64,000 bases of DNA from Lysobacterales bacterium PRO7 (GTDB taxonomy: Bacteria; Pseudomonadota; Gammaproteobacteria; Xanthomonadales; Rhodanobacteraceae): positions 156,760 through 220,759 of the forward strand of contig QWHH01000001.1 of assembly GCA_021404785.1 (NCBI GenBank). Reading direction: 5' to 3'. Of this stretch, positions 20,958 to 57,168 are shown piece after piece; positions within the stretch are counted from its first letter, which is position 1; each line of letters begins with the position of its first letter. The notes under the pieces were generated by a model that searched no databases, had not been told where the DNA came from, and saw nothing but the letters and a program-made list of their open reading frames with translations. A program made the translations under genes and the position numbers.

Positions 20958-21069
20958 GACGGCAGCGCAAACCCAATCGTAATCGATGCAGGCCATCCGT
21001 CGGCTGAACCGGGTGTGATGGCAGTCACGCACCTTGGGCGAAGGTCTTTCCTCTGCGGCGATTTCGCGT

Positions 21070-21089
21070 TAGATAGTCTAATTTGTCTA
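21070..21089. promoter_or_regulatory. TAGAC-motif operator candidate upstream of repA
   Basis: TAGATAGTCTAATTTGTCTA; related sites at 22386, 46115 and 57100. Confidence 0.6.
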
Positions 21090-21108
21090 GTGCGTGTAAT
21101 CTTCGGGC

Positions 21109-22026
21109 ATGACCGACTCCGGAACCGGCGCGCTCAGCCGCCACGATGCGCGCTTCATCCGCGATGCCCTGTCCATTCAGGACGCCGATCCGCGCGATAC
21201 GCACAATCTCGGCTATACGGCGCGCATTCTCACCATCGCCACGCTCCCGCACCGCGCCCAGCCGGGGGACCATTTCGAGCGCACGAATGGGAATTACCGG
21301 CTGGTCGTGCAGGCGATGCCGGGCGCCGGCCTGCCGTTCGGCAGCTATCCACGTCTGTTGCTGGCGTGGCTTGCCACGGAAATCGTGCGCACGCGGCAGC
21401 GGGAGCTTGCCATCGGCGCCTCGATGGCGGACTTCCTGCGCCAGCTTGGCCTCGGGCGTAGCGGCGGGCGTGCGGCTCACGCGCGCAGTGCCGGCACGAT
21501 CCATCGGCTTAAATGCCAAATCATGAGCCTGTTCGGCTCGCGGCTCATCCTGCACAAGCAGTCCTCGCGCGAGCAGATCGAACTGCTGCAGATCGGCGAG
21601 AGGTTTGACTTCTGGACCGATCCCGCGAAACCCGGTGTGCTGCCCGGAACCTTGCGCGTCAGCGAACCCTTGTACGAGCATATCCTGCGCGCGCCCGTGC
21701 CCGTGGACCTGCGCGCCTTGCGCGCGCTGAAACGCTCGCCGCTGGCATTGGACGTGTATACCTGGCTTACGCACCGCAACTTCGTCCAGCAGAACGGCGG
21801 ACGCAAGCAAGCCATGGTTCCCTGGGGCGCCTTGCAGCGGCAGTTCGGTTCAGATTACCCACTCGACAGCCGCGGACGCGCCGACTTCAAGAAGGCGTTT
21901 CACAGTGCCTATCGGCGCGTGCAACTGGTTTATCCGAAAGCCAGTGTCCGCGACAACGGCGATTGCCTGACCCTGATCACGACCGCGCCGCACATTCGTA
22001 CCCATCGGTTGATCGGTACGCGCTGA
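21109..22026 (+). CDS. repA: Plasmid-type replication initiator (RepA_C family)
   Basis: GLPFGSYPRLLLAWLATE, SPLALDVYTWLTHR, WGALQRQFGSDY. Confidence 0.92.
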   Translation: MTDSGTGALSRHDARFIRDALSIQDADPRDTHNLGYTARILTIATLPHRAQPGDHFERTNGNYRLVVQAMPGAGLPFGSYPRLLLAWLATEIVRTRQRELAIGASMADFLRQLGLGRSGGRAAHARSAGTIHRLKCQIMSLFGSRLILHKQSSREQIELLQIGERFDFWTDPAKPGVLPGTLRVSEPLYEHILRAPVPVDLRALRALKRSPLALDVYTWLTHRNFVQQNGGRKQAMVPWGALQRQFGSDYPLDSRGRADFKKAFHSAYRRVQLVYPKASVRDNGDCLTLITTAPHIRTHRLIGTR

Positions 22027-22348: not shown

Positions 22349-22399
22349 AACGGCTAGAGCGGGGGGGCTTGCAAAATAGATCGCATAGTTGGTCTAATT

Positions 22400-22415
22400 G
22401 GTTTCACGTGAAACA
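22400..22415. promoter_or_regulatory. parS: parS site of the chromosomal consensus type
   Basis: GGTTTCACGTGAAACA, one mismatch to TGTTTCACGTGAAACA; about 420 bp upstream of parA. Confidence 0.8.
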
Positions 22416-22430: not shown

Positions 22431-22814
22431 ATGAAATGCTGGCTCGTGGGATTGGTGGCTTTCGTGAACACGGCAGGAGCCGTGCCGCTGTATCTGGAAC
22501 TGGACGGCGCGTACTACACCGTCGCGCCCGGCAGTACGGTCGAATACGAAGGCAGCGCCTGGGTTGCGCCACAAACCTCCATGATCGGCTGCAATCGCCG
22601 CAACAACCAGGTGCAGCAGTTCTCCGACTTCGATCTGTTCTACGGCCCCAATCTCGACGTCGTGTACTTGTCGGCAAGCACGTATTCGTGCGTCGGCGAT
22701 GCGGTGGATGAGGCGTGCGTGCTCGCCATGACGAGCACAACCGGCGACATCGTCTGCGGCGGCGCGGTTGCCGCACCCGATCCGATATTCGCGAACGGCT
22801 TCGAGAGCCGATAG
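22431..22814 (+). CDS. Small secreted protein with C-terminal DPIFANGFE motif
   Basis: Signal peptide MKCWLVGLVAFVNTAGA; ends PDPIFANGFESR. Confidence 0.8.
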   Translation: MKCWLVGLVAFVNTAGAVPLYLELDGAYYTVAPGSTVEYEGSAWVAPQTSMIGCNRRNNQVQQFSDFDLFYGPNLDVVYLSASTYSCVGDAVDEACVLAMTSTTGDIVCGGAVAAPDPIFANGFESR

Positions 22815-22835
22815 GCCCCCGCCGAAGGATTACCC

Positions 22836-23606
22836 ATGACCCGTATCATCGCCTGCGCCAACCTCAAAGGCGGCGAGGGCAAGACGACCATCGCGCGGCA
22901 CTTGGCCTATCACGCGGCATCGCGCGGATTGAAGACATTGGCGGTCGATCTCGATCCGCAGGGCAATCTGACCGATTCCCTCATGCCCGAGGGCGAAGGG
23001 ACGTACACGCAATCTTCCGGTTTGTTCGAGTCCGGTTTTTCGCATGCGAAATTGCACCTGGCCGAATCCGACCGGAACCTCTCGCTGCTACCGGCCGACG
23101 CGCGACTGGATACGCTGGCCGAAATACCCGGCAGCCGCAGCGCGTTCGTGCAACGCGTGCGCGCGAACCTGCGCGCCATCGCGGATTTCGATGTGATTGT
23201 GGTCGATACGCCGACCAATGCGCCGATCTGCTACTTGGCGGGGTTGGCCGCGGCCGATGGTGCCGTCTCGCCGGTGCAGATGGATGTGTATGGCATATCC
23301 GGCGCGGTGCGCCTGACCCAGGCGATCCAGCGCGTGCGCGCGCACTACAACCCGCGCCTGATCCACATCGGTTTTGTGGTGAATCGCTTCAACAGTCGCG
23401 CGGCCTCGCATGCGCAACTGCTAGAGCAGTTCCGGGCCAAGCGCTTGCGCCTGCTCTCCACCGTGTTGCGCGAGCGCGTGGCCGTGCAGGATGCGCTGGG
23501 CCGGCGCATGCCGGTGTGGCGCGGCCCGCGCGGGCGGGTGAACACCCGCGCCGCGCGCGAGATGCGCGCGCTGTGCGCGGAAGTCTTGGCCGGAGTCGGG
23601 CTGTGA
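22836..23606 (+). CDS. parA: ParA family ATPase
   Basis: NLKGGEGKTT Walker A variant, DLDPQGNLT, IVVDTP. Confidence 0.95.
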   Translation: MTRIIACANLKGGEGKTTIARHLAYHAASRGLKTLAVDLDPQGNLTDSLMPEGEGTYTQSSGLFESGFSHAKLHLAESDRNLSLLPADARLDTLAEIPGSRSAFVQRVRANLRAIADFDVIVVDTPTNAPICYLAGLAAADGAVSPVQMDVYGISGAVRLTQAIQRVRAHYNPRLIHIGFVVNRFNSRAASHAQLLEQFRAKRLRLLSTVLRERVAVQDALGRRMPVWRGPRGRVNTRAAREMRALCAEVLAGVGL

Positions 23607-23647
23607 GTGCGCGCGCGACTGCGACAGCGCAGACCAAGGACTTGCGG

Positions 23648-24580
23648 ATGAGCGAGCTGGATCGACTGTCCGACATCGACCGACAGGAGCTGGTACTGGA
23701 ATTGCCGCTCGATGCGATCCAGCCCGATCCGAATCAGCCGCGTCGGACGTTCGATGAGACGAGCCTGCTGGAGCTGGCCGACAGTTTGCGCCGGCTGGGC
23801 CAGATTCATCCGGTCGAGGTGCGCGAGGTCGAGGGAAGTTATGTATTGATCGACGGCGAGCGCCGCTGGCGCGCGGCCAAGCTGGCCGAGCTTTCCGCGC
23901 TGCGCGCGCTGATTCGTTTCGCGCCGGATACGCCGGACGAAGTCCGCGACCGGCAGTTTGCGGCGAACTTCCACCGTGATGCGATGGCGCTCATCGACCA
24001 GGCACGCTATCTGCAAGCACGCATCGAAAGTCTTGGATCGGCGGCAGCGGTGAGTCAGGCCATTGGCCTGAGCACCCCGCGCATCCTGAATATCGTCAAG
24101 ACCTTGCGCGCCGAAGGCGCCGCCGCGGAACTGCGCGATGCCGGCATCACGAAAGACGCCGACACCATTGGCGCCGTGGTCGAGGTGCAAAAGCGCGATC
24201 CTGCCGCCGCCCAAGCCCTGGTCGCGGCTGCGCGCGAATCGGGCAAGCTCACGCGCCGCCAGGCACAAGATGCCGCGCGCGCGGTCAAGGGCAAGTCGTC
24301 GCGTGCGTCCGCGCAATCGCAGGCGCGGGAGGACACGCCATCCGGCCGCCGCACGGCGTCCGCCGAACCGCATCTGGTGGTGCGGCTTGCCTGCGAGGGT
24401 ACGCCGACCGAGCGCGCGCACTGGAACAAGCTCTCGCGCGAGCACGGTCGCGCGTGCCTGTCGCTTGTCGCGACGACCGCGCGCCCCGGAAGTGTGCTGG
24501 TCGAGTTCGGCGCGCACAGCGAACCGTTCCGTGCTGACGGTTTGCGCATTCTCGATACCGTGTTTGAGACCGCGCCATGA
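23648..24580 (+). CDS. parB: ParB family partition protein
   Basis: IQPDPNQPRRTF, LIDGERRWRAA; RBS aagga. Confidence 0.92.
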   Translation: MSELDRLSDIDRQELVLELPLDAIQPDPNQPRRTFDETSLLELADSLRRLGQIHPVEVREVEGSYVLIDGERRWRAAKLAELSALRALIRFAPDTPDEVRDRQFAANFHRDAMALIDQARYLQARIESLGSAAAVSQAIGLSTPRILNIVKTLRAEGAAAELRDAGITKDADTIGAVVEVQKRDPAAAQALVAAARESGKLTRRQAQDAARAVKGKSSRASAQSQAREDTPSGRRTASAEPHLVVRLACEGTPTERAHWNKLSREHGRACLSLVATTARPGSVLVEFGAHSEPFRADGLRILDTVFETAP

Positions 24581-25059
24581 AGAGCGACGCCGAAGATACC
24601 CCGCAAGAGGCCGATGCGCTGCGACTGACCGAAGTGCACCTGATGTACCGCAGCAACCGGCGCTACCGGTTGCTGTTCGGTACGCCGTTCGACGTCGTTG
24701 CGATGGACCAGCCGCACCCGCCCAGCGCACGTATTGCGTTCTTCAAACCGGGCGAACGCTTCGGTCTGGCGCTGTGGGAAGCCAACGACTTCGGCACCAT
24801 CCGCTGGCGCGTATTGGTGTGCCGCGCCTTGCATGCCGGACAGACGGGTACTCGCGTGCCGCAGGTGCGCCCCGGCGCGCATGTGTTGCTCGATATTGCA
24901 GGCGCCACGCGCGCCAAGGCAACGCTGCAATGGCTGTCCTCTTACGTTTCCTCCGGCGCCGTCATCGCGCTATCGGATACGGTGTTCATCGAGGCCGAAT
25001 TCCGTATCGCGAACACGCCGCTGTCGCGCTTGAAAGCCTACACGCGGGAGCCGTTATGA
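24577..25059 (+). CDS. DUF2840-like ICE protein
   Basis: LALWEANDFGTIRWRVLVCRA, PQVRPGAHVLL; position between par and traF. Confidence 0.75.
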   Translation: MKSDAEDTPQEADALRLTEVHLMYRSNRRYRLLFGTPFDVVAMDQPHPPSARIAFFKPGERFGLALWEANDFGTIRWRVLVCRALHAGQTGTRVPQVRPGAHVLLDIAGATRAKATLQWLSSYVSSGAVIALSDTVFIEAEFRIANTPLSRLKAYTREPL

Positions 25060-25586
25060 CGGCCCATCAATACATTCGCCTGCTGCGCTTGCTGGCGCTG
25101 GCCGGTGCGCTCGTCGTGCTTGCTTACGGTGCCGGCGCGTTGATTCGTCTGTCCGACCATGCGCTGTATGTGAACGACTCGCCGAGCATGCCGCGCGGGC
25201 TGTACTGGATACACCTGGGAGTGCTGCCATCCGAGCGCGGCGAGGTCGTCGTCTTTCGTCCGACACTGGCCTTCGCACACCTTATCTATGAGCGCGGTTG
25301 GCTGCCTCACGATATGCCGCTGATCAAATCCGTGGGCGGCGTGGCCGGCGACATTTATTGCACCATCGACGGACATTTTGTTGTCGATGGCGAGGACGCA
25401 GGCCCGATCTTCGACCGCGATGCGCAAGGCGCAGTGGTGCCGCAGATGGCGGGCTGTCATCGCGTTGCGCGCGGGACCTTCTTGCCGGTGTCCTCGTACA
25501 TCGCGCGCAGCTTCGATGGCCGTTACATGGGCGCCGTGCCGGCAGCCAATGTCATCGGCACCGGCGTCCCACTGCTGACCTTCTGA
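25056..25586 (+). CDS. traF: Conjugative pilin-processing S26 peptidase
   Basis: VNDSPSMPRGLY, LIKSVGG, RSFDGRYMG. Confidence 0.92.
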   Translation: MTAHQYIRLLRLLALAGALVVLAYGAGALIRLSDHALYVNDSPSMPRGLYWIHLGVLPSERGEVVVFRPTLAFAHLIYERGWLPHDMPLIKSVGGVAGDIYCTIDGHFVVDGEDAGPIFDRDAQGAVVPQMAGCHRVARGTFLPVSSYIARSFDGRYMGAVPAANVIGTGVPLLTF

Positions 25587-25587
25587 T

Positions 25588-26070
25588 ATGCCGCTCGCGA
25601 ACTTCTATGCGGCCTGCGGGCCGTGGGTGCATCCGGACACGATTGCCGCCGTCGCCGCGGTCGAAAGCGGCTCCCGTCCGTGGACGATCGGTACCTCGCA
25701 CGGCGCGTTTTACGCGACGAGCGAAGGAGAGGCGGCAGCATATCTCGCGCAGGCCCTGCGTACCGAATCGAGCGTCGACATCGGCCTGATGCAGATCAAC
25801 TCGCAGTGGATCGCGCGCCTGCAAATTGCGCCCGAAGCGCTGCTCGATCCGTGCATCAATGTGCGCGTGGGCGCGGCAATTCTTGCGGCCGATTTTGTCG
25901 CTGCTGCGCGTCCCGGCCGGGCACCGTTGCAGACCCTGATCGCGGCCTTGGCCGTGTACCACAGCGGATCGGAAAGCGCCGGCATTGCATACGCGCGGCA
26001 GATGCTCGAAGCGGCCATGGCATCGGCCAATCCCACGAGCAATCCGATGAAAAAATCGGGGGCAAGATAA
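25588..26070 (+). CDS. Lytic transglycosylase (VirB1-like)
   Basis: AAVESG catalytic Glu, DIGLMQINSQW, LLDPCINVRVGA, AVYHSG. Confidence 0.9.
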   Translation: MPLANFYAACGPWVHPDTIAAVAAVESGSRPWTIGTSHGAFYATSEGEAAAYLAQALRTESSVDIGLMQINSQWIARLQIAPEALLDPCINVRVGAAILAADFVAAARPGRAPLQTLIAALAVYHSGSESAGIAYARQMLEAAMASANPTSNPMKKSGAR

Positions 26071-26077
26071 AAGTGTG

Positions 26078-26193
26078 TGTACATGAGCCCTCGCAAACCC
26101 AATGGCAGCAAGGCTTTTTGATGTACATGCCATGCGCGGCATGTACATCGGACGCCGCAAACCGCGCCGCTATGCGAGTTTGCGATGTACATC
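26078..26193. other. Candidate oriT
   Basis: Intergenic region upstream of the relaxase; 12-bp perfect inverted repeat 26120-26131/26138-26149 and four TGTACAT copies. Confidence 0.6.
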
Positions 26194-26218
26194 CCCCGAG
26201 ACATGGCGTCAGGACGCC

Positions 26219-28255
26219 ATGAGCACGAAGCCGCCCGACGAGCCGACTGACCGGGTGCATCCACGATTCTCGCGCACGCGCGAATCGCGCCAGCCACGTT
26301 TGCTTGCCCGTGTCCGGCTCGGGCCAAAGTCGGCGCTCGCCGCCTCCATCCGCTTGGCAGGGCGGGGTACAGCGAGCCGTGCAGGCCGCGGTGCCGGCGT
26401 GCGCTTTGCCGGCCGGCATGCGCAGCGCGTCGTCATCAAGGCGCGCATCGTGCCGATGCGTGGCAAGTCGCCGGCCGATGCCGTGCGCCGGCATCTGGCG
26501 TACCTGTCACGCGATGGCGCGGACCGGCAGGGCGGACCGGGCAGGGTATTTGGCACCGACGGGGAACTGGATCGCGAGCAGATCGACGCCTTCGCAGAGC
26601 GCGGTTTGGAATGCCGCCACCAGTTCCGCTTCATCGTCTCGCCCGAACGCGGTGGCGAACTCGACCTGGAACGCTTCACGCGCGACCTCATGCGCCGCAT
26701 GCAGCACGATGTCGGCTCGCGCCTGGACTACGTTGCCTGTGCGCATCACGACACCGACCAGCCGCACGTGCACATCCTCGTGAACGGACGCGACGTGCGT
26801 GGCGGCGACCTCGTGGTTAGCCGCGACTACATCGGCAACGGCTTGCGCCAGCGTGCGATGGAGCTCGCCACCAACGAACTCGGCTTTCGGACGGACCTCG
26901 ACGTATTTCAAAGCTTGGCCCGCGACATTCGGACCGACCGCTACACGGCGCTGGACCGGCGCTTGCAGATGCTGCACGAGCGCGATGGGTTTATCGACTT
27001 GCGCACCGTGCCGACGGCGCCACGTGCTGTCGTGCAACGCCGGCTGTATCTGGGCCGTCTGTCGCACTTGGAAAAGATAGGTCTCGCACAACAGGACCGG
27101 CGCGGGGTGTGGCGCCTGCATCCGCAGGCGATCGAGCGGTTGCGCGGTCATACCCAGCACCGCGCTGTCCAGCAGCAGGCCGAACGGCATCTTGAACCCG
27201 GCGATCGCGGTGCGCCGCTCACGGTCATCGACAAGGCAAAACTCGCGCTACCTGTAACGGGCCGCGTGCTCGGCCGTGGCCTCGCCAACGAGCTGACCGG
27301 CACCGACTACATCATCGTGTCGGGCATCGACGGCAAGACCTATTACGCGGCGCTGTCCACGCACTCCGAACGTCACTTGGAGGCTCCCGTGCGGCGCGGC
27401 GACATCGTGAGTCTGCACCGCGAAGTGTCGCGGCCGACCGGTCAGGCGGATCGCAACATCGTCGCGCTCGCCGCTCGATACGATGGCGTTTACGACTCGC
27501 AGCGCCACACAAATGAAATCCGCGATCGGCGCTTGCCCTATGACGCGACCCCGGAACGCTTTGTCGCCGCGCATGTGGCGCGTCTGGAGGCGCTCGCAAG
27601 CCGCGGCCTCGTCGCGCGCGAATTCGAAGGCCGTTACCGGGTTCCGCCGGACCTGATCGCGCGGTTGGATACGGATCCTGCGCCGGCTCGCGACGATGCG
27701 TTCGTGAAAGTGCAGCGCATCACCGACGAGTCCTTGAGACGCCAGTCGAGCGCGCGGGCTTACACCTGGCTGGACGAGCAACTGGTCGCCGGCACGGCGC
27801 AATCGCTGCGGCAGGCCGGCGCGCGCAACAGCTTCCAGAACGAGCTTCTCGAAGCCCTCGACAAGCGCGTGCGCCAGCTTGTGCCGCTTGGGCTCGCTAC
27901 CTTTGAGGGCGAGGGCGTGAGGCTCGATCCGCAGTTGCGCGACACGCTCGGCGAACTCGAACGCCGAACGCTCGTTGCGCGGCTCAGCAAGCAGTACGGC
28001 ACCTTCGTGGAACTGGAGCAGACTGGTGACTTCGCGGGCCGCGTTGCCGCCATCGAATCGCTGCACGGAAAGCCGCATGCCGCTGTCGCGAGCGCCGCTC
28101 ACTTTACCCTCGTACCTGCCGAACGCGGCCTGCAAAAGCTCATCGGCCAGGACGTCGCGCTGAACCTGTCGCGCAACCGCGACCTGGACCATGCGCCACA
28201 GGTGCGGTTTCGGGCGCTCGATGCGCCGGATTTGTCTTTCGGACTTTCACGATGA
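26219..28255 (+). CDS. VirD2-like MOBP relaxase with DUF3363-type C-terminal region
   Basis: RVVIKARIV, HLAYLSRDG, HQFRFIVSPE, HHDTDQPHVHILVNG (HUH). Confidence 0.95.
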   Translation: MSTKPPDEPTDRVHPRFSRTRESRQPRLLARVRLGPKSALAASIRLAGRGTASRAGRGAGVRFAGRHAQRVVIKARIVPMRGKSPADAVRRHLAYLSRDGADRQGGPGRVFGTDGELDREQIDAFAERGLECRHQFRFIVSPERGGELDLERFTRDLMRRMQHDVGSRLDYVACAHHDTDQPHVHILVNGRDVRGGDLVVSRDYIGNGLRQRAMELATNELGFRTDLDVFQSLARDIRTDRYTALDRRLQMLHERDGFIDLRTVPTAPRAVVQRRLYLGRLSHLEKIGLAQQDRRGVWRLHPQAIERLRGHTQHRAVQQQAERHLEPGDRGAPLTVIDKAKLALPVTGRVLGRGLANELTGTDYIIVSGIDGKTYYAALSTHSERHLEAPVRRGDIVSLHREVSRPTGQADRNIVALAARYDGVYDSQRHTNEIRDRRLPYDATPERFVAAHVARLEALASRGLVAREFEGRYRVPPDLIARLDTDPAPARDDAFVKVQRITDESLRRQSSARAYTWLDEQLVAGTAQSLRQAGARNSFQNELLEALDKRVRQLVPLGLATFEGEGVRLDPQLRDTLGELERRTLVARLSKQYGTFVELEQTGDFAGRVAAIESLHGKPHAAVASAAHFTLVPAERGLQKLIGQDVALNLSRNRDLDHAPQVRFRALDAPDLSFGLSR

Positions 28256-30270
28256 CCACGAAATCCCGTCCGCGCACACCCGGCGGTTTGGTTCTCGCGC
28301 CGCTTGCCATCGTATCCATCGCCATTGTGATCGGTTGCTGGCTGGCTACCGAATACGTCGCCGAAGGCTTCGCCGACCAGCCGCAGCTTGGGGCGCCGCT
28401 GCTGTGGATCGGCGGACATGCGATCTATCCGCCGTTCGATTATTTCGTCTGGCTCAATCGCTGGAATGCGTATGCGCCACATCGCTTCGACATCGCGCTG
28501 TTCTGGCTGTACGGCGCCGTACTCGGCGGGATTCTCGCCGCCATCGTGTTCAACGTCTGGCGCGCGCGCGGCAGTCGCATTGCCACTACCTACGGTTCGG
28601 CGCGATGGGCCGACCAGGACGACATTGCACGCAGCGGGCTGATCGGCCGTGGTGGTGTCGTCCTTGGCCGCACGGCTGCCGACGAGTATGTGACTCACGA
28701 TGGCCCCGAGCATGTCGAGGTCACCGCTCCCAGCCGTTCCGGCAAGGGCGTGGGCATTGTCGTTCCGACCTTGTTGACCTGGCCGGGCTCCGTGATCGTC
28801 AACGACATCAAGGGCGAGAACTGGACGCTCACGGCCGGCCATCGCCGGCGCTTCGGTTACGTGCTCGCCTTCAATCCGTCGAGCCGGCAGACCTGCCGCT
28901 TCAATCCGCTGATGGAGATCCGCGCAGGGGATTTTGAAGTGCGCGATGCGCAAAACATCTGCGACATGATCGTGGACCCGGAAGGCAAGGGCAAACCCGA
29001 TCACTGGAGCCGCGAAGCCGATGCCTGGCTGCTCGCCGTTATCCTGCACGTACTCTATGCGGAACCGGACAAGACGCTCGGCGGCATTGCGCGATTCCTG
29101 AACGACCCAGATCGAACGATCCAGGATTGCCTGCTCGCCATGCTCTCGACACCGCATCGCGATGGCAGGCCGCATCCAGTCGTCGCCATCGGTGCGCGCG
29201 CCATGTTGAACAAGAGCGCGAACGAGCGCAGCGGCGTGCATTCCACCGCGCGCTCATTCTTCAGCCTGTACCTTGATCCCGTCGTCGCATCCGCCGTTAG
29301 CGAGAGCGACTTTCGCATCGCGGACCTGATGCAAGCCGAGCACCCCGTAAGCTTGTATCTGATCTCGCCGCCCAGCGACAAGGCGCGGCTGCGGCCATTG
29401 TTTCGGTTGCTGCTGAACCAGTTCTGCCGGCGCCTGACCGAAGAACTGCATCCGCCGGCCAACCGGCATCGCCTGCTGCTGTTGCTGGACGAGTTTCCCT
29501 CACTCGGCAGGCTCGACTTCTTCGAAGACGCGCTGGGGTTCGTCGCCGGCTACGGCTTGAAGTGCCTCATGATCAATCAGAGCACGAACCAGATCGTCAA
29601 ATACTACGGTCAAAACAACACCGTCATGGACGGCGCGCATGTGCACGTCTACTTCGCGCCGAACACGGAGGAGACGGCGCGAAAAATATCCGACCTGCTC
29701 GGCACGAAGACGCAAGTACACACGCAGGAGAATTTCGCCGGGCACCGGCTTGCGCCCTGGCTCGGGCACGTCATGGTCTCGCGCCAGCAGACGGCACGTG
29801 CCTTGCTGACGCCGGGGGAGGTGCGCGAGCTGCCGCCCTCGGACGAGATCGTGATCGTCGCGGGCTTGCCACCGATCCGCGCGAAGAAGCTGCGCTTCCA
29901 TGCCGATAGGCGTTTCAAGAATGCGGTGCCGCCGACGGATGCGCAAGGCCGGCTGACCGATCCGGCGCATCCGCGCAATCCGCCGACCAATTTGGCGGCG
30001 CGACCGTATCCCTATGGCCCGCCCGTGCCGAAAGTGATGTGGAGCGTTTCGCATGCGAAATCGGTCGTGCCCGCTCCGGATGAAGCGCTGGACGAGCTCG
30101 ATCGGGAACACGGTGCCGATAGCGATCTGCCGGAGCCGGATTTGGCAAACACACAAACGCAGGAGCCGGAATCCGGCACTGACGATACCGATGCCGCTCG
30201 ACGCGCGTATGGCCTCGAACAAGACAAGCGCAGATCGCACACCGATCCGGACCCGGGGTGGAATCTATGA
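28252..30270 (+). CDS. traG: Type IV coupling protein TraG/VirD4
   Basis: TYGSARWA, APSRSGKGVGIVVPTLL, LLLDEFPSLGRL. Confidence 0.96.
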   Translation: MTTKSRPRTPGGLVLAPLAIVSIAIVIGCWLATEYVAEGFADQPQLGAPLLWIGGHAIYPPFDYFVWLNRWNAYAPHRFDIALFWLYGAVLGGILAAIVFNVWRARGSRIATTYGSARWADQDDIARSGLIGRGGVVLGRTAADEYVTHDGPEHVEVTAPSRSGKGVGIVVPTLLTWPGSVIVNDIKGENWTLTAGHRRRFGYVLAFNPSSRQTCRFNPLMEIRAGDFEVRDAQNICDMIVDPEGKGKPDHWSREADAWLLAVILHVLYAEPDKTLGGIARFLNDPDRTIQDCLLAMLSTPHRDGRPHPVVAIGARAMLNKSANERSGVHSTARSFFSLYLDPVVASAVSESDFRIADLMQAEHPVSLYLISPPSDKARLRPLFRLLLNQFCRRLTEELHPPANRHRLLLLLDEFPSLGRLDFFEDALGFVAGYGLKCLMINQSTNQIVKYYGQNNTVMDGAHVHVYFAPNTEETARKISDLLGTKTQVHTQENFAGHRLAPWLGHVMVSRQQTARALLTPGEVRELPPSDEIVIVAGLPPIRAKKLRFHADRRFKNAVPPTDAQGRLTDPAHPRNPPTNLAARPYPYGPPVPKVMWSVSHAKSVVPAPDEALDELDREHGADSDLPEPDLANTQTQEPESGTDDTDAARRAYGLEQDKRRSHTDPDPGWNL

Positions 30271-30710
30271 GCGGCAACTTGCCGGCCGAGCATGTGCACA
30301 TGCGCCTGACGGCATCGCTCAAACGTGCCGCGGCACGCGAGGCGGCGGAGCGGCATATCACGTTTCGCGGTGTCGTCGAAGCGGCGTTGCGGGATCGCTA
30401 CGATCCGGAGCGGGCTTACACCGACCGGCAGCTCGTGATCCGGGAACTCAAAACACTGCGCCGAGAAATCGCCAATGTGTCCACAGGCAATACCGTGCTG
30501 TTCGAGGCGTTGGTGTTGCTGGTGAAAAACCTATTTTCCTCGCTCACCCCGCCGACCGCGGAGGGGCGGCTGGCGGGCGTTGCGTTCTATGCGCGGTTCA
30601 TCGAGGCCGTCACGGGTGCCATCGAACGCAATGAAACGGTGATGGCGCAGGTGCTGGCGCTGTCCGTCGTCAATTACGACAACCCATCAGAAGGATCGAA
30701 CGAACCATGA
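30267..30710 (+). CDS. CopG-like ribbon-helix-helix protein
   Basis: HVHMRLTASLKRAAAREAAERHITFRGVVEAAL; usual position between traG and trbB. Confidence 0.7.
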   Translation: MSGNLPAEHVHMRLTASLKRAAAREAAERHITFRGVVEAALRDRYDPERAYTDRQLVIRELKTLRREIANVSTGNTVLFEALVLLVKNLFSSLTPPTAEGRLAGVAFYARFIEAVTGAIERNETVMAQVLALSVVNYDNPSEGSNEP

Positions 30711-31714
30711 CCGACACGACGCAAGATCGCCTGATCGAGATGATGACCACCGCGATGGGTGTCGCCGTGGGCGACCTGCTGCACGATCCGGCGGTCGAGG
30801 AACTGCGCGCCAATCCGGACGGCAAGCTATGGTTTGTGCGCGAGGGCGCGCGGCATAACACCGGAAAAACTTTGAGCGACGTTGCGCGCCGCCAACTTAT
30901 CCATATCGTCGCCCACGCCGTGGGTGTCACGGTCGATGAGGACAACCCGAGTTTTCCTGCGGAACTGCCCGAATCCGGTTATCGCTTCCACGCCATCGTG
31001 CCGCCGCAAAGCCCGGACGGCCCAACCTTTGTTATCCGCAAGAAACCAATCAAGGTGTACTCGCTCGACGATTATGTGGCGGCCGGGATCATGACGGCCG
31101 AGCAAGCGGCGTTCATTCGACAGGCGATCGCGGATCGCCAGAACATCCTTGTCGGCGGCGGCACCGGATCGGGCAAGACCACGCTGACCAATGCGATCCT
31201 GAAAGAAATCGGCCTCATCGCCGGACGCGTGTTGACCGTGGAGGATACGCTGGAGCTACAAGTCGAAGCCGATGAGGTGGTGCGCCAGCGCACGGTGCGC
31301 AACGGCGATGCCGTGCGCCGCACGATGCAGGATGTGGTGCGCGACATGCTGCGCTTATCCCCGGATCGCATCATCGTCGGCGAAGTGCGCGGACCCGAAG
31401 CGATGGATCTAATCCAGGGTTGGAACACGGGGCATCCGGGCGGCGTCGCCACAATCCATTGCAACTCCGCACCCGATGCTCTGGAGCGGCTGGAGGACTT
31501 GTTGATCCAGGGTGGTTACACACCCGTGCCGCGGCAGATTGCCAAGGCGATCAATATCATCGTGTTCATCGGGCCGGTCACTGTCGATACGCCACATGGG
31601 GTTCATGTGCTGCGTCGTGTGCGCGACATCGTGCGTGTGACCGGCATTAATACCTCGCAGGCCGGCGCTGAGTACGCTTTCGAGCGGCCGTTTTCTGGAG
31701 TATCGAAATCATAA
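30707..31714 (+). CDS. trbB: P-type conjugative ATPase TrbB (VirB11)
   Basis: GGTGSGKTT, LRLSPDRIIVGEVRG, WNTGHPGGVATIH. Confidence 0.96.
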   Translation: MTDTTQDRLIEMMTTAMGVAVGDLLHDPAVEELRANPDGKLWFVREGARHNTGKTLSDVARRQLIHIVAHAVGVTVDEDNPSFPAELPESGYRFHAIVPPQSPDGPTFVIRKKPIKVYSLDDYVAAGIMTAEQAAFIRQAIADRQNILVGGGTGSGKTTLTNAILKEIGLIAGRVLTVEDTLELQVEADEVVRQRTVRNGDAVRRTMQDVVRDMLRLSPDRIIVGEVRGPEAMDLIQGWNTGHPGGVATIHCNSAPDALERLEDLLIQGGYTPVPRQIAKAINIIVFIGPVTVDTPHGVHVLRRVRDIVRVTGINTSQAGAEYAFERPFSGVSKS

Positions 31715-35284: not shown

Positions 35285-35299
35285 CACGAGGAGAGCAAC

Positions 35300-46114: not shown

Positions 46115-46134
46115 TAGACAAAATAGATAGTCTA
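46115..46134. promoter_or_regulatory. TAGAC-motif operator candidate upstream of trbC
   Basis: TAGACAAAATAGATAGTCTA; shares TAGATAGTCTA with the repA site. Confidence 0.6.
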
Positions 46135-46183
46135 TGTGTAGATTCCCGCCGCCGCTGCTTCGCGGTGCGCCGTCGAGGAATCC

Positions 46184-46495
46184 ATGCACAACCGCCGTCG
46201 TCTTGCCGCTGTCGTCGTCCTGACTGTCCTGCTGTTGCCAGTCCTTGCGCATGCTTCCGGTTCCGGCATGCCCTGGGAGTCCTGGCTGCAGAAAGTGCTC
46301 GATTCGATTTCCGGTCCCGTCGCCAAGATCGTCGGCGCAATCGCGATCATTCTGGCGGGCCTGGGTATGGCATCGGGCGAGGGCGGGCGGGGCGCGCGCA
46401 AGTGGATCGAGCTGGCCTTCGGATTGTCGATCGCGTTCACCGCGGTGAGCTTTTTCCTGAGCTTCTTCGGCTTTGCCGGCGGCGTGGCGTTTTAA
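46184..46495 (+). CDS. trbC: Pilin TrbC/VirB2
   Basis: AHASGSGMPWESWLQKVLDSISGPVAK. Confidence 0.93.
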   Translation: MHNRRRLAAVVVLTVLLLPVLAHASGSGMPWESWLQKVLDSISGPVAKIVGAIAIILAGLGMASGEGGRGARKWIELAFGLSIAFTAVSFFLSFFGFAGGVAF

Positions 46496-46499
46496 GACC

Positions 46500-46766
46500 A
46501 TGCAGAGTGCCGATCACGTACCGGGATTCGAGATTCCGGTTCACCGCAGCCTGACCGAACGCATCCTCGTTGCCGGTGTGCCGCGCGAGGCGGCGCTGCT
46601 CAATGCGACCTTCACCGCTGCGTTCGTGTTCGGCTTGCAGTGTTGGTATGCACTCCCAATCGGTTTCGGCCTGCATTGGCTGGCGATTCGTCTGACCCGG
46701 CGCGACGACCGTTTCTTCGACGTGCTGCGGCGCAATTTGCGCTTTGGCGTGTTCTACCGCGCCTGA
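46500..46766 (+). CDS. trbD: TrbD/VirB3
   Basis: PVHRSLTERILVAGVPRE...DDRFFDVLRR. Confidence 0.9.
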   Translation: MQSADHVPGFEIPVHRSLTERILVAGVPREAALLNATFTAAFVFGLQCWYALPIGFGLHWLAIRLTRRDDRFFDVLRRNLRFGVFYRA

Positions 46767-46788
46767 TATTTCGCATGCGAAATCCCCC

Positions 46789-49395
46789 ATGACTCTGATC
46801 TCGTATCTGTTGCCCGTCTTTTCCGGCCTGACCGGTTCGATGGCCTTCGGCCTCGCCGGCTGGCTGGGCGTGGAAACCATTCGCCTGAACCGCTCGCGCC
46901 GGGGGCAGGCGCCGGCGACGCTCGCCGACCTCGTGAAGTGGGCTGCGATTGTTTCGCCCGGCGTGGTGCTGAACAAGAACGGCAGTTTTCAGACCACATT
47001 CGCCTATCGCGGCCCGGACCTCGACAGTTCCACCGAGTCGGAACTCGTCGCCACCTGCGCGCGGCTGAACAATATCGTGCGGCGGCTCGGCGCTGGCTGG
47101 GCACTGTACGTGGATGCTGTGCGCCGCGAGACGACCGCGTACCCGCACTCGCATTTTCCCGATCCAATCAGTGCATTCATCGACGAGGAGCGCCGTGCGG
47201 CGTTCGAGAGCGGAGAGCACTTCGAGAGTGCGTACTACTGCACGTTAATCTGGCTGCCGCCGCCGCTGATCGAAGCGGCAACGGAGGCGCTGTTTTTCGA
47301 CGACGATACGGAGCCGGATGGACACTCGCGTCGCGAGGCCGGCGTCAGGCGCGCCGATCGTGCCGCGGCCGAATTCCTCGCCGCGTTCATCGGCGAGCGC
47401 AACCGCCTGATCGCGCAGTTCGCCGGCATCTTTCCGAGTGTCGTGCCGCTGGACGATGCACAGACGCTTTCCTATTTGCACTCGACGATCTCGACCAAAG
47501 TCCACCCGGTCGCGGTTCCCGACGTGCCCGATTGTCTGGATGCGCTGCTGATCGACGAACCGCTAACAGGTGGCGGCAAGCCCAAGCTCGGGAAGAATTA
47601 CATCGGCGTCCTGTCGATCAAGTCGTTTCCGAACGAAAGCTACCCCGGCATCCTCGACGCACTCAATCGCCTGGGCTTCGTCTATCGCTGGGTCACGCGC
47701 TTTGTGTGCCTGGATAAACCCGAGGCGGAACGCCAGATCGACGCGTTCAAGCGCAAATGGTTCGCCAAGCGCAAGAACCTCTCCACTCTGATCAAGGAAG
47801 TCCTCGCCAACCAGCAAAGCGCCTTGGAAGACTCCGACGCCATCAATCGGGCCCAGGATGCCGATGCGGCGCGGCAGGAACTGTCCGCCGATGCGGTGCG
47901 CTATGGCTATTTCACGCAAGTCCTCGTCGTGTTCGATCCCGACTATGAAGTGCTGGAGAAAAAGCTCCTGCTGCTCGAACGCGAAATCAATGGCCGTGGC
48001 TTTGTAGTGGCCAACGAACTCACGAACCTCAATGCACTGGATGCCTGGTTTGGCAGCGTTCCCGGCAACTGCAACCACAATGTCCGCCGTCCGCTGGTCA
48101 ATACGCTCAACCTCACCCACATGATGCCGGTGTCGGCGGTGTGGGCGGGACCGCGCACCTGTCCGAACGATCTGATGCCGGTTCATTCGCCGCCACTGCT
48201 GACTGCGGTCACCGGCGGCACGACCCCGTTCCGGTTCACGAACTTCGTCGGCGACGTCGGCCATACCCTGGTGCTCGGCCCCACCGGCTCCGGCAAGAGT
48301 GTCCTGCTCAATCTCATGGAAGTGCAATTCCTGCGCTATCCGAACGCACAGGTCTATATCTTCGACAAGGGCGGCAGCTCGCGCATTACCACCCACGGCA
48401 TCGGCGGCACGTTCTACGACCTGGGTGCTGAACATGGCCTCGCCTTCCAGCCTCTCGCTGACATTCATTTGGGAACAGAGCGCACTTGGGCGAGCGAGTG
48501 GCTGCTCGACATGCTCGCCGCCGAGAACGTCGCGGTCACGACGGCAACCAAGAAAGCGTTATGGGAAGGACTGTGTACGCTGGCCGAAAGCCCACGACCG
48601 CAGCGCACGCTCACGGGCTTGTCGATCCTGGTGCAGGACAACGAGATCAAGCGCGCCCTGCACCCGTACACCATCCAGGGCGCGCATGGCGCACTGCTCG
48701 ATTCCAAATCGGATTCCTTGAGTCTCGGACATTGGATCGCGTTCGAGATGGAAGAACTGATGAGCACCAAGGGCGTGGTCATGCCCGTGCTCGCCTACTT
48801 GTTCCATCGGCTGGAACAGCGCTTCGCCGCCAGCGCACCAACCTTGCTGGTGCTGGACGAGGCGTGGCTGTTTCTCGATCACCCCGCGTTCGCCGCGAAG
48901 ATCCGCGAATGGTTGAAGGTGCTGCGCAAGAAGAACGTATCCGTGGTGTTCGCCACGCAATCGCTCGCGGACGTGGATGCTTCGCCGATCGTCGCGACGA
49001 TCAAGGAAGCTTGCCTGACCAAGATTTATCTGCCGAACGCGAATGCGCTGAATGACGACATCGCGGCGATCTACGCCAAGTTCGGCCTGAACGACCGTCA
49101 GCTTCGCATTCTGCAACACGCACGGCCGCGCCGCGACTATTACCTGACCTCCCCGGATGGCAATCGCCTGTTCGACTTGGGGTTAGGGCCGCTCGCGCTC
49201 GCCTACTGCGGTGCGACCAGCGCCGAGTTGCAGGCAATTGCGAAGACGATCCAGCGCGAGCATCCGCACGACTTCAACGCACGCTATCTGGCCGCACGCG
49301 CGAATGAATCGGCGCCCGACCGGCGCCTGATCGTCGAATGGGCGATCGCGGCGCTGCGCGAACGCCAGATTGCCGAACCCTCACACGTCCACTAG
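46789..49395 (+). CDS. trbE: Conjugative ATPase TrbE/VirB4
   Basis: VGHTLVLGPTGSGKS, VLDEAW, IREWLKVLRKKN. Confidence 0.96.
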   Translation: MTLISYLLPVFSGLTGSMAFGLAGWLGVETIRLNRSRRGQAPATLADLVKWAAIVSPGVVLNKNGSFQTTFAYRGPDLDSSTESELVATCARLNNIVRRLGAGWALYVDAVRRETTAYPHSHFPDPISAFIDEERRAAFESGEHFESAYYCTLIWLPPPLIEAATEALFFDDDTEPDGHSRREAGVRRADRAAAEFLAAFIGERNRLIAQFAGIFPSVVPLDDAQTLSYLHSTISTKVHPVAVPDVPDCLDALLIDEPLTGGGKPKLGKNYIGVLSIKSFPNESYPGILDALNRLGFVYRWVTRFVCLDKPEAERQIDAFKRKWFAKRKNLSTLIKEVLANQQSALEDSDAINRAQDADAARQELSADAVRYGYFTQVLVVFDPDYEVLEKKLLLLEREINGRGFVVANELTNLNALDAWFGSVPGNCNHNVRRPLVNTLNLTHMMPVSAVWAGPRTCPNDLMPVHSPPLLTAVTGGTTPFRFTNFVGDVGHTLVLGPTGSGKSVLLNLMEVQFLRYPNAQVYIFDKGGSSRITTHGIGGTFYDLGAEHGLAFQPLADIHLGTERTWASEWLLDMLAAENVAVTTATKKALWEGLCTLAESPRPQRTLTGLSILVQDNEIKRALHPYTIQGAHGALLDSKSDSLSLGHWIAFEMEELMSTKGVVMPVLAYLFHRLEQRFAASAPTLLVLDEAWLFLDHPAFAAKIREWLKVLRKKNVSVVFATQSLADVDASPIVATIKEACLTKIYLPNANALNDDIAAIYAKFGLNDRQLRILQHARPRRDYYLTSPDGNRLFDLGLGPLALAYCGATSAELQAIAKTIQREHPHDFNARYLAARANESAPDRRLIVEWAIAALRERQIAEPSHVH

Positions 49396-49404
49396 GAGAG
49401 TCCC

Positions 49405-50148
49405 ATGCTTGCACGCCACCGCGTGACTGCGGCCATCGTTGCCGCGCTGATTCTTGTTAGCCCAATCCACGAGGCGCACGCGCAGTTTGCCGTGATCGAC
49501 GTGGCGAACCTCATGCAGAACTACCTGAACGGCGCCCAGGAAATCCTGACCGCGGCGCGCACGTTGCAATCGAACATCAATGAAGCGCAGATGATCGCCA
49601 ATCAGCTGCAGAACCTCAAAAACCTGCCGCAGCAGATCATCGACTCCTATGTATCGCGCTTCCAGCACATCCTGTCCGACATCCAGAACCTGACCCAGCT
49701 CGTCGGCAATTACGACACGCTCTCGCAAACCTTTGCCGCGCGCTACCCGAACCTGCGCAACGGCACCGTCGAACCCTCGCAAATCTTCGCGTTGCAGGCG
49801 CAGTGGGGCGACCAGCAGCGCCAGAACCTGCTGCAAGCCATGCAGCAAGGCGCCGGGGTACTGAAGGATTTGCAGGCCGCGGTCGGCGATACCCAGTTCA
49901 TGGCTTCGAGCAGTCAAGGCGCGGCTGGCGCATTACAGGCGATTCAGGCCGGCAACCAGCTCACGCTGCGCGTCAACGACGACCTGCAGCGCCTCAACGC
50001 GCAGGTCGCGACCTTCAACGGCGTGGTGCTGGAAAAGATGGCCCGAGAACAGGCCGAAGACGATGCGGCCGAAGCCATGCGCAAGCAGTTGCACGCTCAC
50101 GACGCCGATCCTTATCAGCCTGCGCCCGCGCGCGATCCGCGCTACTGA
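49405..50148 (+). CDS. trbJ: TrbJ/VirB5
   Basis: Signal peptide AHAQFAVIDVANL, SQGAAGALQAIQAGNQL. Confidence 0.9.
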   Translation: MLARHRVTAAIVAALILVSPIHEAHAQFAVIDVANLMQNYLNGAQEILTAARTLQSNINEAQMIANQLQNLKNLPQQIIDSYVSRFQHILSDIQNLTQLVGNYDTLSQTFAARYPNLRNGTVEPSQIFALQAQWGDQQRQNLLQAMQQGAGVLKDLQAAVGDTQFMASSSQGAAGALQAIQAGNQLTLRVNDDLQRLNAQVATFNGVVLEKMAREQAEDDAAEAMRKQLHAHDADPYQPAPARDPRY

Positions 50149-50181
50149 GCCATCCGTCTACAACACGCTTCGAGTCTATCC

Positions 50182-51765: not shown

Positions 51766-51768
51766 AGG

Positions 51769-52488: not shown

Positions 52489-52529
52489 TCCGACTTCCGT
52501 TTCATTCCCGCACTTATATAAGGAGTGTT

Positions 52530-53582: not shown

Positions 53583-53591
53583 GGAGCCGTC

Positions 53592-54809: not shown

Positions 54810-54813
54810 ACCC

Positions 54814-55098
54814 ATGTCCCGATCCCACACATTGCCGGCGATCCCGGTCAAACATGCCATTGCGCGCAAGGTCCTGAATCTGTCCGCACCGCTGGAGGCG
54901 AGGCTGCGCGCGTATATCGCCTACTACAGCGAGCAGCAGGGCTTGCAGCCGAAGCAGGTTCCATCCGAATCCGACACGATCATCGCGCTCATCGAAAATT
55001 TCCTGGCCCGCGATGTGGGATTCAACCGCTATCTGCGCAACAAGACGACAGCAACCAAGTCGGCGACGAAGAAGGAAGCCGGCGGCGTATCTGCATGA
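54814..55098 (+). CDS. DUF2274-like protein
   Basis: Position after trbI; LRAYIAYY...FLARDVGF pattern. Confidence 0.65.
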   Translation: MSRSHTLPAIPVKHAIARKVLNLSAPLEARLRAYIAYYSEQQGLQPKQVPSESDTIIALIENFLARDVGFNRYLRNKTTATKSATKKEAGGVSA

Positions 55099-57115: not shown

Positions 57116-57168
57116 CAACGTACCGCGGCACCCGAATTATGGCCGCGGACTACAGGAGCCAACTGAGA

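What the first reader, a model, noticed from the sequence alone, without database searches (positions are those of the whole stretch)
21070..21089. 9-bp-periodic TAGAC motif at the main ICE backbone promoters: candidate master-regulator regulon
Seen: upstream of repA TAGATAGTCTAATTTGTCTA (21070-21089); upstream of the 22431-parAB-tra-trbB run TAGTTGGTCTAATTGGTTTC (22386-22405, reverse complement GAAACCAAT-TAGACCAAC-TA); upstream of trbC TAGACAAAA-TAGATAGTCTA (46115-46134); upstream of alpA TAGACCAAC-TAGACCA (57100-57115); a weaker TAGACAAC (7642-7649) upstream of the XRE gene. The repA and trbC sites share TAGATAGTCTA exactly, and the par and alpA sites share TAGACCAACTA exactly. These AT-rich words are unlikely by chance in such GC-rich DNA. 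Inference: one regulator co-controls replication, partition, transfer and excision. The XRE protein (possible autoregulation), AlpA or an RHH protein are candidates. A partial resemblance to the xanthomonad LexA site (TTAG-N6-TACTA, as I recall it) should be excluded.
Basis: partly seen in the sequence, partly recalled or inferred. Interest (0 to 1): 0.75.

Follow-up and report, generated by a model that had tools for sequence, protein, structure and literature searches.

The report
Shared operator at ICE backbone promoters
A short DNA word (TAGAC, repeated every 9 bases) marks the promoters for replication, partition, mating-pore and excision genes of a 66.6-kb conjugative element, and most likely is the docking site of a small, undescribed ribbon-helix-helix protein that the element encodes to keep these genes under one control.

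Summary
All quoted strings sit at the stated coordinates. TAGAC/GTCTA is the most enriched 5-mer in the four 100-bp upstream regions (7 seen, 0.14 expected). A matrix built only from sites in related elements ranks the four window sites among the top five of the 2.81-Mb genome.

The sites are kept at the same promoters in three related elements. A fourth relative, in the same genome as one of them, carries a different 9-bp unit (AAATACCAT) at those positions. So this is an operator that changes together with an element-encoded regulator.

The best candidate is not XRE, which is cargo on the other strand and absent from relatives. It is not AlpA, which is replaced in one relative that keeps the sites. 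It is not LexA. It is a 76-aa protein at 55564-55794 with ribbon-helix-helix signals (SvtR E=9e-4, ParG E=0.016) and no Pfam family. Its two sequence clades match the two operator classes.

At PtrbC (TAGACA-18-TAGATT) the units cover the -35, spacer and -10, which suggests repression. Binding itself is untested.

The weak XRE-side site is unrelated. The "second repeat" at par belongs to a parS-like palindrome.

This is a new variant of a known kind: a plasmid-style global repressor regulon.

The parts
21063..21091 (-). Operator at the repA promoter. On the minus strand it reads TAGACAAAT TAGACTATC TAACGCGAA. It contains the palindrome TTAGA-TAG-TCTAA and ends 20 nt before the repA ATG.
   Evidence: top genome-wide score, 24.4. 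Orthologous sites in R, A, L008 and L010.
22379..22405 (-). Operator at the promoter of the 22431-parA-parB-...-traG-trbB run. On the minus strand it reads (GAAACCAAT) TAGACCAAC TATGCGATC. The first unit overlaps the parS-like palindrome GTTTCACGTGAAAC.
   Evidence: score 20.5. The same 24 bases, TAGTTGGTCTAATTGGTTTCACGTG, are in relative A; R has TAGACAATCTAAATGATCCACGTGG.
46115..46144 (+). Operator overlapping PtrbC: TAGACAAAA TAGATAGTC TATGTGTAG ATT. The -35 is TAGACA, the spacer is 18 nt and the -10 is TAGATT.
   Evidence: (promoter scan). TAGATTCC is conserved in W, A, B and L106; R has TAGGATTCC.
55431..55448 (+). Degenerate two-unit site TCGACCAAC AAGACCAAG, about 115 nt upstream of the RHH-like gene and inside the 3' end of the preceding gene.
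   Evidence: rank 7 genome-wide. The orthologous position has TAGACCAAA TAGACGATT in R, TCGACCAAT AAGACCACG in A, and AAATACCAC in B.
57100..57117 (+). Operator upstream of alpA, the last gene of the element: TAGACCAAC TAGACCACA, 21 nt before the ATG at 57139.
   Evidence: score 24.2. Relative A has TAGACCAAC TATACATAT TAGACCACT before a non-homologous small gene in the same position.
55564..55794 (+). Candidate regulator 'RHH2', 76 aa with a GTG start. The predicted strand is LQKVYALM, followed by two helices and basic N- and C-terminal tails.
55248..55460 (+). 70-aa conserved partner gene (ALExLLAHFPNP motif), always directly upstream of RHH2. No sign of a DNA-binding fold.
55167..55192 (+). 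Conserved promoter-like element CCTAG-N9-CTAGGTACACAAG upstream of the p70-RHH2 pair. In relatives an operator unit sits just 5' of it; the window has only a degenerate GCCGACC there.
30258..30710 (+). CopG-like RHH1 (150 aa) between traG and trbB. This is a rival candidate.
   Evidence: No Pfam or PDB sequence match.
21109..22026 (+). repA (RepA_C), a controlled gene.
22431..31714 (+). Controlled run: exported 127-aa protein, ParA, ParB, DUF2840, SLT, relaxase (DUF3363), TraG, RHH1, TrbB.
46184..55098 (+). Controlled run: trbC-D-E-J-L-F-G-I and DUF2274.
57139..57408 (+). alpA (Phage_AlpA), the likely excisionase and a controlled gene.
57551..57574 (+). attR: a 24-bp repeat of the tRNA-Gln 3' end. 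This is the right end of the element. attL is at C16:147757, outside the window.

Best explanation
The TAGAC units are the operator of a regulator encoded by the element itself. The consensus is TAGAC[C/A]A[A/T]N. Each site has two or three units in 9-bp phase, in direct or inverted orientation, and often forms TAGA-N3-TCTA.

The element is a 66.6-kb Tn4371-like integrative conjugative element (ICE) inserted in tRNA-Gln. The operator sits on or just before the core promoters of:
- repA;
- the par-relaxase-traG-trbB run;
- the trbC-trbI run;
- the regulator's own region;
- alpA.

The most likely binder is a 76-aa ribbon-helix-helix-like protein (RHH2, 55564-55794). I infer that one dimer binds each unit and that neighbouring dimers bind cooperatively, as in omega, ParG or MetJ. 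At PtrbC the units cover the -35, the spacer and the -10, so I infer repression. Under this reading RHH2 holds replication, partition, transfer and excision off together until an unknown signal relieves it.

Shown here: the sites exist, they are strongly enriched, they are conserved at orthologous promoters, and they are swapped as a set for another 9-bp unit in elements whose RHH2 belongs to the other clade.

Inferred: that RHH2 is the binder, that it represses, and the stoichiometry.
For: Enrichment:
-.
- A matrix from relatives only puts 5 of the top 7 genome hits in 2.4% of the genome. My own binomial arithmetic gives about 1.5e-7.

Conservation in elements R, A and L106, whose RepA is about 65% identical:
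- The regexes hit only the orthologous promoters and nothing else in 60 kb each.
- trbC-up alignments are.

Class switch:
- Element B lies in the same contig as A. Its backbone proteins are the closest to the window for six of the nine backbone proteins compared (ParA 84%, TraG 85%, TrbB 86%, TrbI 82%).
- B has no TAGAC site. It has ATGGTAAAT/AAATACCAT units at repA-up, par-up, trbC-up and RHH2-up.
- Six further elements with clade-II RHH2 (L108, L112, L114-L117) also carry 9-bp-phased A[A/G]NTACC[A/G][C/T] units. An example is AGATACCGC AAATACCGC ACATACCAT.
- RHH2 is the one protein compared for which B is the outlier: 35, 30 and 36 of 66 residues identical to W, R and A, against 42-50 among W, R and A. 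Its strand is RRVYVHI instead of LQKVY.LM.

Fold of RHH2:
- The profile matches SvtR (2kel, E=9e-4) and ParG (1p94, E=0.016), with the strand aligned.
- There are weak Pfam ParG and RHH_10 hits.
- The Foldseek list is dominated by RHH proteins at rmsd below 1 A over 34-41 columns.

Promoter overlap: TAGACA-18-TAGATT at trbC.

Candidates removed:
- LuxR is absent from L106, which has TAGAC sites.
- AlpA is absent from A.
Against:
- The match between protein clade and operator class rests on a single split, clade I against clade II, so it counts as one evolutionary event.
- Within clade II, two different strand types (RRVYVHV and RRTVNSYVY) go with the same TACC operator, so strand residues alone do not explain specificity.
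- The AlphaFold monomer model draws the putative strand as a helix.
- Foldseek E-values are all above 1, and the Pfam hits are below threshold.
- The 70-aa partner protein also shows class-specific residues (FPNP against FPNV).
- No sigma-70 consensus promoter was found at repA or par. That is also what an activator-dependent promoter would look like.
Confidence: 0.55

Rival explanations
1. The units are a real operator, but the binder is the CopG-like RHH1 (30258-30710) encoded between traG and trbB.
For: It has a clear strand-helix-helix N-terminus, HVHMRLTASLKRAAAREAAERHITFRGVVEAAL. It is conserved in all four elements. It sits inside one of the controlled runs.
Against: Its predicted DNA-facing strand residues are H,H,R,T in W and H,H,R,S in B, which has the other operator class, but I,N,R,S in R, which has the same class as W. 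Its identity to W is 70.9% in B and 59% in R, so it follows the backbone and not the operator. It has no PDB or Pfam sequence match.
Confidence: 0.12
2. The units are a real operator bound by another protein of the conserved right-end module (the 70-aa partner, or the roughly 170-aa orfX), alone or in a complex with RHH2.
For: Both genes are always next to RHH2. The 70-aa protein has class-specific residues.
Against: Neither shows any sign of a DNA-binding fold (and for orfX).
Confidence: 0.12
3. RHH2 or another factor binds the units but activates rather than represses. In this reading the element is off by default because its promoters are weak.
For: No consensus promoter was found at repA or par. 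In L106 and B the units lie at about -45 to -30, where class II activators bind.
Against: In W, R and A the units also fill the spacer and reach the -10 of PtrbC. PtrbC is a reasonable sigma-70 promoter on its own, with 9 of 12 matches. RHH regulators of plasmid backbones are, from general knowledge, nearly all repressors.
Confidence: 0.1
4. The words are promoter elements themselves (a TAGACA-type -35, a TCTAAT-type -10) shared by descent, with no dedicated regulator.
For: TAGACA serves as the -35 at PtrbC. TGGTCTAAT resembles an extended -10 at par.
Against: TCTAAT lacks the essential A at position 2. The units occur in both orientations relative to the genes. B replaces them by a different word at the same promoters while keeping the TAGATT -10. 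The 9-bp phase is kept with two or three units.
Confidence: 0.06
5. A host factor (LexA or another), XRE, AlpA or LuxR binds the sites.
For: There is a superficial TTAG...TA resemblance at one site. AlpA and LuxR are DNA-binding proteins encoded nearby.
Against: The xanthomonad LexA pattern is absent from the element. A and B share one host genome but have different units. XRE is absent from relatives. AlpA is absent from A. LuxR is absent from L106.
Confidence: 0.04

Closest known systems
Omega (ω) repressor of inc18 plasmids such as pSM19035 (from general knowledge)
   Same: It is a small RHH dimer that binds arrays of short units in direct or inverted orientation. It co-represses promoters for copy-number control, partition and stability, so one protein ties the backbone functions together.
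   Different: Omega's units are 7-bp heptads (WATCACW) in arrays of 7-10, and omega also acts as the centromere-binding partner of the ParA-like delta protein. Here the units are 9 bp, with only two or three per site. The element has its own ParB-type protein, transfer and excision promoters are included, and there is no detectable sequence relationship.
ParG of plasmid TP228 (PDB 1p94)
   Same: It is the best named sequence-profile relative after SvtR (E=0.016; Pfam ParG at E 0.011 in 4 of 16 members). It is an RHH protein with a flexible basic N-terminal tail that binds repeated boxes in either orientation and autoregulates.
   Different: The similarity is below family thresholds. ParG is paired with ParF and builds a centromere complex. 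RHH2 is not next to parA, and its sites are at promoters spread across the element.
KorA/KorB/TrbA global regulation of IncP-1 plasmids (from general knowledge)
   Same: Operators are repeated at replication, partition and trb promoters of a P-type conjugation backbone, giving coordinate repression.
   Different: KorA is a helix-turn-helix protein and KorB a ParB protein. Their operators are 12-13-bp palindromes, and they are plasmid rather than ICE regulators.
TraR (LysR-type) control of canonical Tn4371-family ICEs (PMC11448139)
   Same: The backbone is of the same kind. A regulator gene lies downstream of the mating-pore genes, with multiple sites proposed at xis, traG and oriT.
   Different: TraR is an activator with T-N11-A sites such as CGTTTTGATGGAGACGCAAAACG. 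This element has a LuxR-type gene in that position and the unrelated TAGAC units.

Membership tests
Ribbon-helix-helix (MetJ/Arc) superfamily, for RHH2 | An N-terminal strand followed by two helices within about 45 residues, detectable by sequence or structure comparison | tested here: inconclusive
   The profile against the PDB gives SvtR E=9e-4 and ParG E=0.016, with strand and helices aligned. Foldseek top hits are mostly RHH proteins at rmsd 0.6-0.9 A over 34-41 columns, but with E above 1. The monomer model draws the strand as a helix.
Ribbon-helix-helix (MetJ/Arc) superfamily, for RHH2 | An obligate dimer whose paired strands enter the major groove | not testable with these tools
   Only single-chain prediction is offered.
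Pfam ParG (PF09274) and RHH_10 (PF23807) | A score above the curated threshold | tested here: not met
   Best E is 0.011 (ParG, 4 of 16 members) and 0.026 (RHH_10, 2 of 16). The window protein itself has no hit.
Tn4371-family ICE | Backbone of RepA, ParA, ParB, VirD2-type relaxase, TraG, trbBCDEJLFGI and a tyrosine integrase at one end | tested here: met
   Pfam results. The integrase is at C16:148007-149245, and attL/attR lie at tRNA-Gln.
Tn4371-family ICE | A LysR-type traR downstream of the mating-pore genes in reverse orientation (PMC11448139) | tested here: not met
   The gene in that place and orientation (55802-56644, minus strand) is LuxR-type, with Autoind_bind and GerE domains.
Xanthomonad LexA box | TTAG-N6-TACTA | tested here: not met
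   There is one match in the genome (C4:175785) and none in the element.
Operator of an element-encoded regulator (general kind) | Enriched at the element's promoters compared with the host genome | tested here: met
Operator of an element-encoded regulator (general kind) | Conserved at orthologous promoters in relatives, and changing together with a cognate protein | tested here: met
   The change is one clade split only.
Operator of an element-encoded regulator (general kind) | Direct protein-DNA binding and an effect on transcription | not testable with these tools
   This needs EMSA or footprinting and reporter assays.

The most novel reading that the evidence does not exclude
RHH2 and its 9-bp units form an immunity-like specificity system for this ICE clade. 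Related elements that share a host (A and B, in one contig) have diverged into two orthogonal repressor/operator classes, TAGAC and TACC. Each resident element would then control only itself, as heteroimmune prophages do. An incoming element of the same class would be silenced on entry.
Probability: 0.25. Interest if true: 0.7.

Novelty: new variant of a known kind. Interest (0 to 1): 0.55.

Why it matters
Little is known about how Tn4371-like elements are switched on. These elements spread metal-resistance and degradation genes in soil and plant-associated proteobacteria. The only studied case uses a LysR activator.

This analysis gives a concrete, testable wiring diagram for a sister clade. 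It has one small protein, five operator sites with base-level coordinates, and a natural specificity swap (TAGAC against TACC) that can serve as a built-in control. It also assigns a likely function to a protein family that has no Pfam model, about 70 clusters in 5.8 billion proteins and about eight small 50%-identity representatives in 1.84 billion. It further suggests that co-resident ICEs avoid cross-talk through divergent operators.

Tried and rejected
- XRE as regulator. The HTH_3 gene is on the minus strand (7205-7570). It lies in the RHS cargo module, has no homologue in R, A or B, and has its own TGTTG/CAACA palindromes.
- AlpA and LuxR as binders. Both are rejected by presence/absence in relatives.
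- LexA is rejected.
- Reading TCTAAT as a -10. It is rejected because position 2 is C and R has TCTAAA.
- A divergent promoter toward 20376-21032 (minus strand). That ORF is an insertion absent from relatives.
- 19682-20353 is the wrong frame. The real gene is radC, in frame 19771-20358.
- A single-protein genome-contig scan gave only two loci, and a 400-genome class sample gave 4 hits.
- G401:C3 was fetched in error.
- A text search for the motif words found nothing relevant.
- Earlier-findings searches by words and by sequence were empty.
- Contigs for clade-II proteins did not reach trbC-up, so for those elements only the right-end sites could be read.

Full report
**What the window holds.** The window is G000:C16:156760-220759. 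Most of it is one integrative conjugative element (ICE).
- A 24-bp repeat, GTTCGAATCCTAGTCTCCCAGCCA, is the 3' end of tRNA-Gln at C16:147757. It recurs at window 57551-57574. The element is therefore about 66.6 kb, starts 9 kb before the window, and ends just after alpA.
- A tyrosine integrase lies at C16:148007-149245.
- The backbone is Tn4371-like:
  - RepA_C (21109-22026);
  - an origin with DnaA boxes and CGCCGCTTCACTCCCAA iterons;
  - an exported 127-aa protein, ParA, ParB, DUF2840, SLT, a DUF3363 relaxase, TraG, a CopG-like protein and TrbB (22431-31714);
  - copper/RND cargo;
  - trbC to trbI and DUF2274 (46184-55098);
  - two small genes, a LuxR-type gene on the minus strand, a roughly 170-aa gene and alpA.

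- TAGAC/GTCTA is rare: 993 occurrences in 2.81 Mb.
- Only two same-strand pairs in the genome are 9 bp apart, and both are in the element.
- TAGNNNGTCTA has seven genome hits, four of which are the claimed sites.
- GTCTA/TAGAC is the most enriched of all 512 5-mers in the four 100-bp upstream regions: 7 against 0.136 expected, in 4 of 4 regions.
- As a test that does not use the window's own sites, I built an 18-mer matrix from sites in relatives only and scanned the whole genome. Ranks 1, 2, 4 and 5 are the repA, alpA, trbC and par sites. Rank 7 is a degenerate pair at 55431-55448.
- The one outsider is C2:224954 (rank 3).

**Two corrections.**
- The weak "XRE" site is unrelated. The HTH_3 protein is encoded on the minus strand (7205-7570). 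The word lies between TGTTG/CAACA palindromes, and the whole module is missing from relatives.

**Relatives.** RepA searches gave a Rudaea genome (element R) and a gammaproteobacterial MAG that carries two related elements, A and B, in one contig. Eighty metagenome loci came from a further scan.
- Synteny with the window is complete for the backbone.
- All four elements have a cargo gap between trbB and trbC, so trbC has its own promoter in each.
- Regular expressions for the phased units hit only promoter regions in W, R and A, and hit nothing in B.
- In R and A the sites lie upstream of repA, upstream of the par run, upstream of trbC and in the right-end module. A has a further one at 28195, in a gap between the SLT gene and the relaxase gene.
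- In A a three-unit site also precedes a small gene that stands where alpA stands in the window but is not homologous to it. By eye it resembles PrtN-type excision proteins.
- A further element, L106, has ATAGACCAAT TAGACAAAC at trbC-up.
- Read in one orientation, the sites line up as two or three 9-bp units. The pattern is TAGAC[C/A]A[A/T]N, then TAGA[C/T]N[A/G/T]TC, then TA[T/A]... This often creates the palindrome TAGA-N3-TCTA.
- Within an element the sites resemble each other more than they resemble orthologous sites elsewhere. TAGATAGTCTA occurs twice in W. TAGATTGTCTA occurs twice in R.

**The class switch.** For six of the nine backbone proteins compared, element B is the closest to the window (ParA 84%, TraG 85%, TrbB 86%, TrbI 82%). 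Yet at the same promoters it carries ATGGTAAAT ATGGTATTT (par), TGGTAAATACCA (repA), ATGGTATTTACA (trbC) and AAATACCAC (right end).
- The trbC -10, TAGATTCC, is kept in W, A, B and L106 (R has TAGGATTCC), so the promoter is the same and only the operator word has changed.
- Because A and B live in the same genome, a host factor cannot explain the difference.

**Which protein binds?** I aligned every small conserved protein across W, R, A and B.
- The CopG-like RHH1 follows the backbone. B is 71% identical to W and R is 59%. Its predicted DNA-facing strand residues are the same in W and B.
- The 76-aa product of 55564-55794 (GTG start, confirmed by gene calls on homologues beginning MEHPA) behaves the other way. 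W, R and A share KLQKVY.LM, while B has RRVYVHI. B is the outlier over the first 66 residues: 30-36 identical against 42-50.
- This family is tiny and unnamed. It has about 70 clusters among 5.8 billion proteins and no Pfam domain. An exhaustive profile search of 1.84 billion proteins gave 24 representatives at 50% identity, about eight of them small proteins of the family.
- It splits into a clade with LQKVY/LDKVY strands and a clade with RRVYVH or RR[T/M]VNSYVY strands.
- For six more clade-II elements I could read the right-end regions. All carry 9-bp-phased A[A/G]NTACC[A/G][C/T] units and none carries TAGAC. Examples are AAGTACCAT AAACACCGT AAATGCGGT and AGATACCGC AAATACCGC ACATACCAT.
- Clade-I elements have TAGACCAAC-type units at the equivalent spot, just 5' of a conserved CCTAG-N9-CTAG.T.C.CAA element.
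- LuxR is absent from L106 and AlpA from A, so neither is the binder.

**Fold.**
- A profile of the family matches two solved RHH proteins: SvtR (E=9e-4) and ParG (E=0.016). QKVYVLM aligns to the DNA-reading strand.
- Some members give weak Pfam ParG and RHH_10 hits.
- The AlphaFold monomer (pLDDT 83.7) superposes on RHH domains at below 1 A over 34-41 columns, but with non-significant Foldseek E-values, and it models the strand as a helix.
- I therefore call the protein RHH-like, not proven.
- The 70-aa gene always found upstream of it shows no DNA-binding signal.

**Mechanism.**
- At trbC the tool finds TAGACA-18-TAGATT.
- In W, R and A the units occupy the -35, the spacer and the start of the -10. 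In L106 and B they cover the -35 and the bases just upstream.
- At repA, par and alpA the sites end 20-26 nt before the start codons.
- This fits occlusion of RNA polymerase by cooperative RHH dimers, one per unit. Plasmid RHH repressors that accept direct and inverted units work this way (general knowledge of omega, ParG and MetJ).
- The absence of consensus promoters at repA and par keeps an activator model alive.
- Because alpA is the last gene before attR, its promoter could also read into int after excision, as reported for a Tn4371-family element (PMC11448139). That is inference only.

**Limits.**
- The protein/operator match is one phylogenetic split.
- Two strand types share the TACC operator, so the recognition code is not understood.

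**Comparison with what is known.** The logic is that of global backbone repressors of plasmids such as omega of inc18 or KorA/KorB of IncP-1. The canonical Tn4371 family instead uses a LysR activator with T-N11-A sites (PMC11448139). Here a LuxR-type gene sits in that place. I found no description of the TAGAC units or of this protein family.

**Verdict.** This is a genuine operator set that is conserved and changes together with its likely regulator.

Noticed in passing
window 57551-57574 and C16:147757-147780: A 24-bp direct repeat at the 3' end of tRNA-Gln defines attL and attR. The element is about 66.6 kb, alpA is its last gene, and ORF 57685-58281 lies outside it.
   Followed up: yes
window 7205-7661: The XRE (HTH_3) gene is on the minus strand (ATG at 7570). 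The divergent region holds a perfect TATAAT (7629-7634) and the repeats TGTTG-N5-CAACA-N7-TGTTG (7635-7661), probably its own operators. ORF 7655-8071 has no family hit.
   Followed up: partly
G401:C1:1-60000 and 270001-350000 (loci L099-L105): Two related elements lie in one MAG contig and have different operator classes (TAGAC against TACC), different RHH2 clades and different genes at the right end. A has a small gene that by eye looks PrtN/excisionase-like. B has another small gene followed by a second tyrosine integrase.
   Followed up: partly
window 22080-22345: The origin lies downstream of repA. It has DnaA boxes (TGTGGATAA/TTATCCACG), five CGCCGCTT[C/G]ACTCCCAA iterons and CCTGTA repeats. 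The layout is the same in R and A.
   Followed up: partly
C16:152140-152175 (element, left of the window): A GTCTA pair with 15-bp spacing (TTGTCTATAGCGTAATAGTCTAACAC) lies after the first DUF736 copy and before the metal-efflux cargo. It is out of 9-bp phase, and it is unclear whether it belongs to the regulon.
   Followed up: no
C2:224954: This is the only strong matrix hit outside the element: TAGAGTATCTATACAAAA (score 22.1), in an intergenic stretch after a gene end. It could be chance or a host target.
   Followed up: no
window 20376-21068: A minus-strand 218-aa ORF lies between radC (19771-20358) and repA. It is absent from R, where radC directly abuts the repA operator, so it is an insertion just beside the operator.
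   Followed up: partly
window 31714-46184, and the same gap in R, A and B: The trbB-trbC junction is a cargo hot spot in all four elements, with gaps from 1.2 kb (R) to 14.5 kb (window). That is why trbC carries its own operator-bearing promoter.
   Followed up: partly
C11 near 71000: TACTGTAATTTTTTACAGTA is an E. coli-type SOS box (CTGT-N8-ACAG).
   Followed up: no
loci L017, L019, L022, L083; L046, L051, L061, L079, L080: More distant RepA_C elements (about 40% identity) carry their own short repeated words just upstream of repA, for example CTATATAAC-like repeats and TGCATA repeats. Element-specific operators at repA may be general in this replicon family.
   Followed up: no
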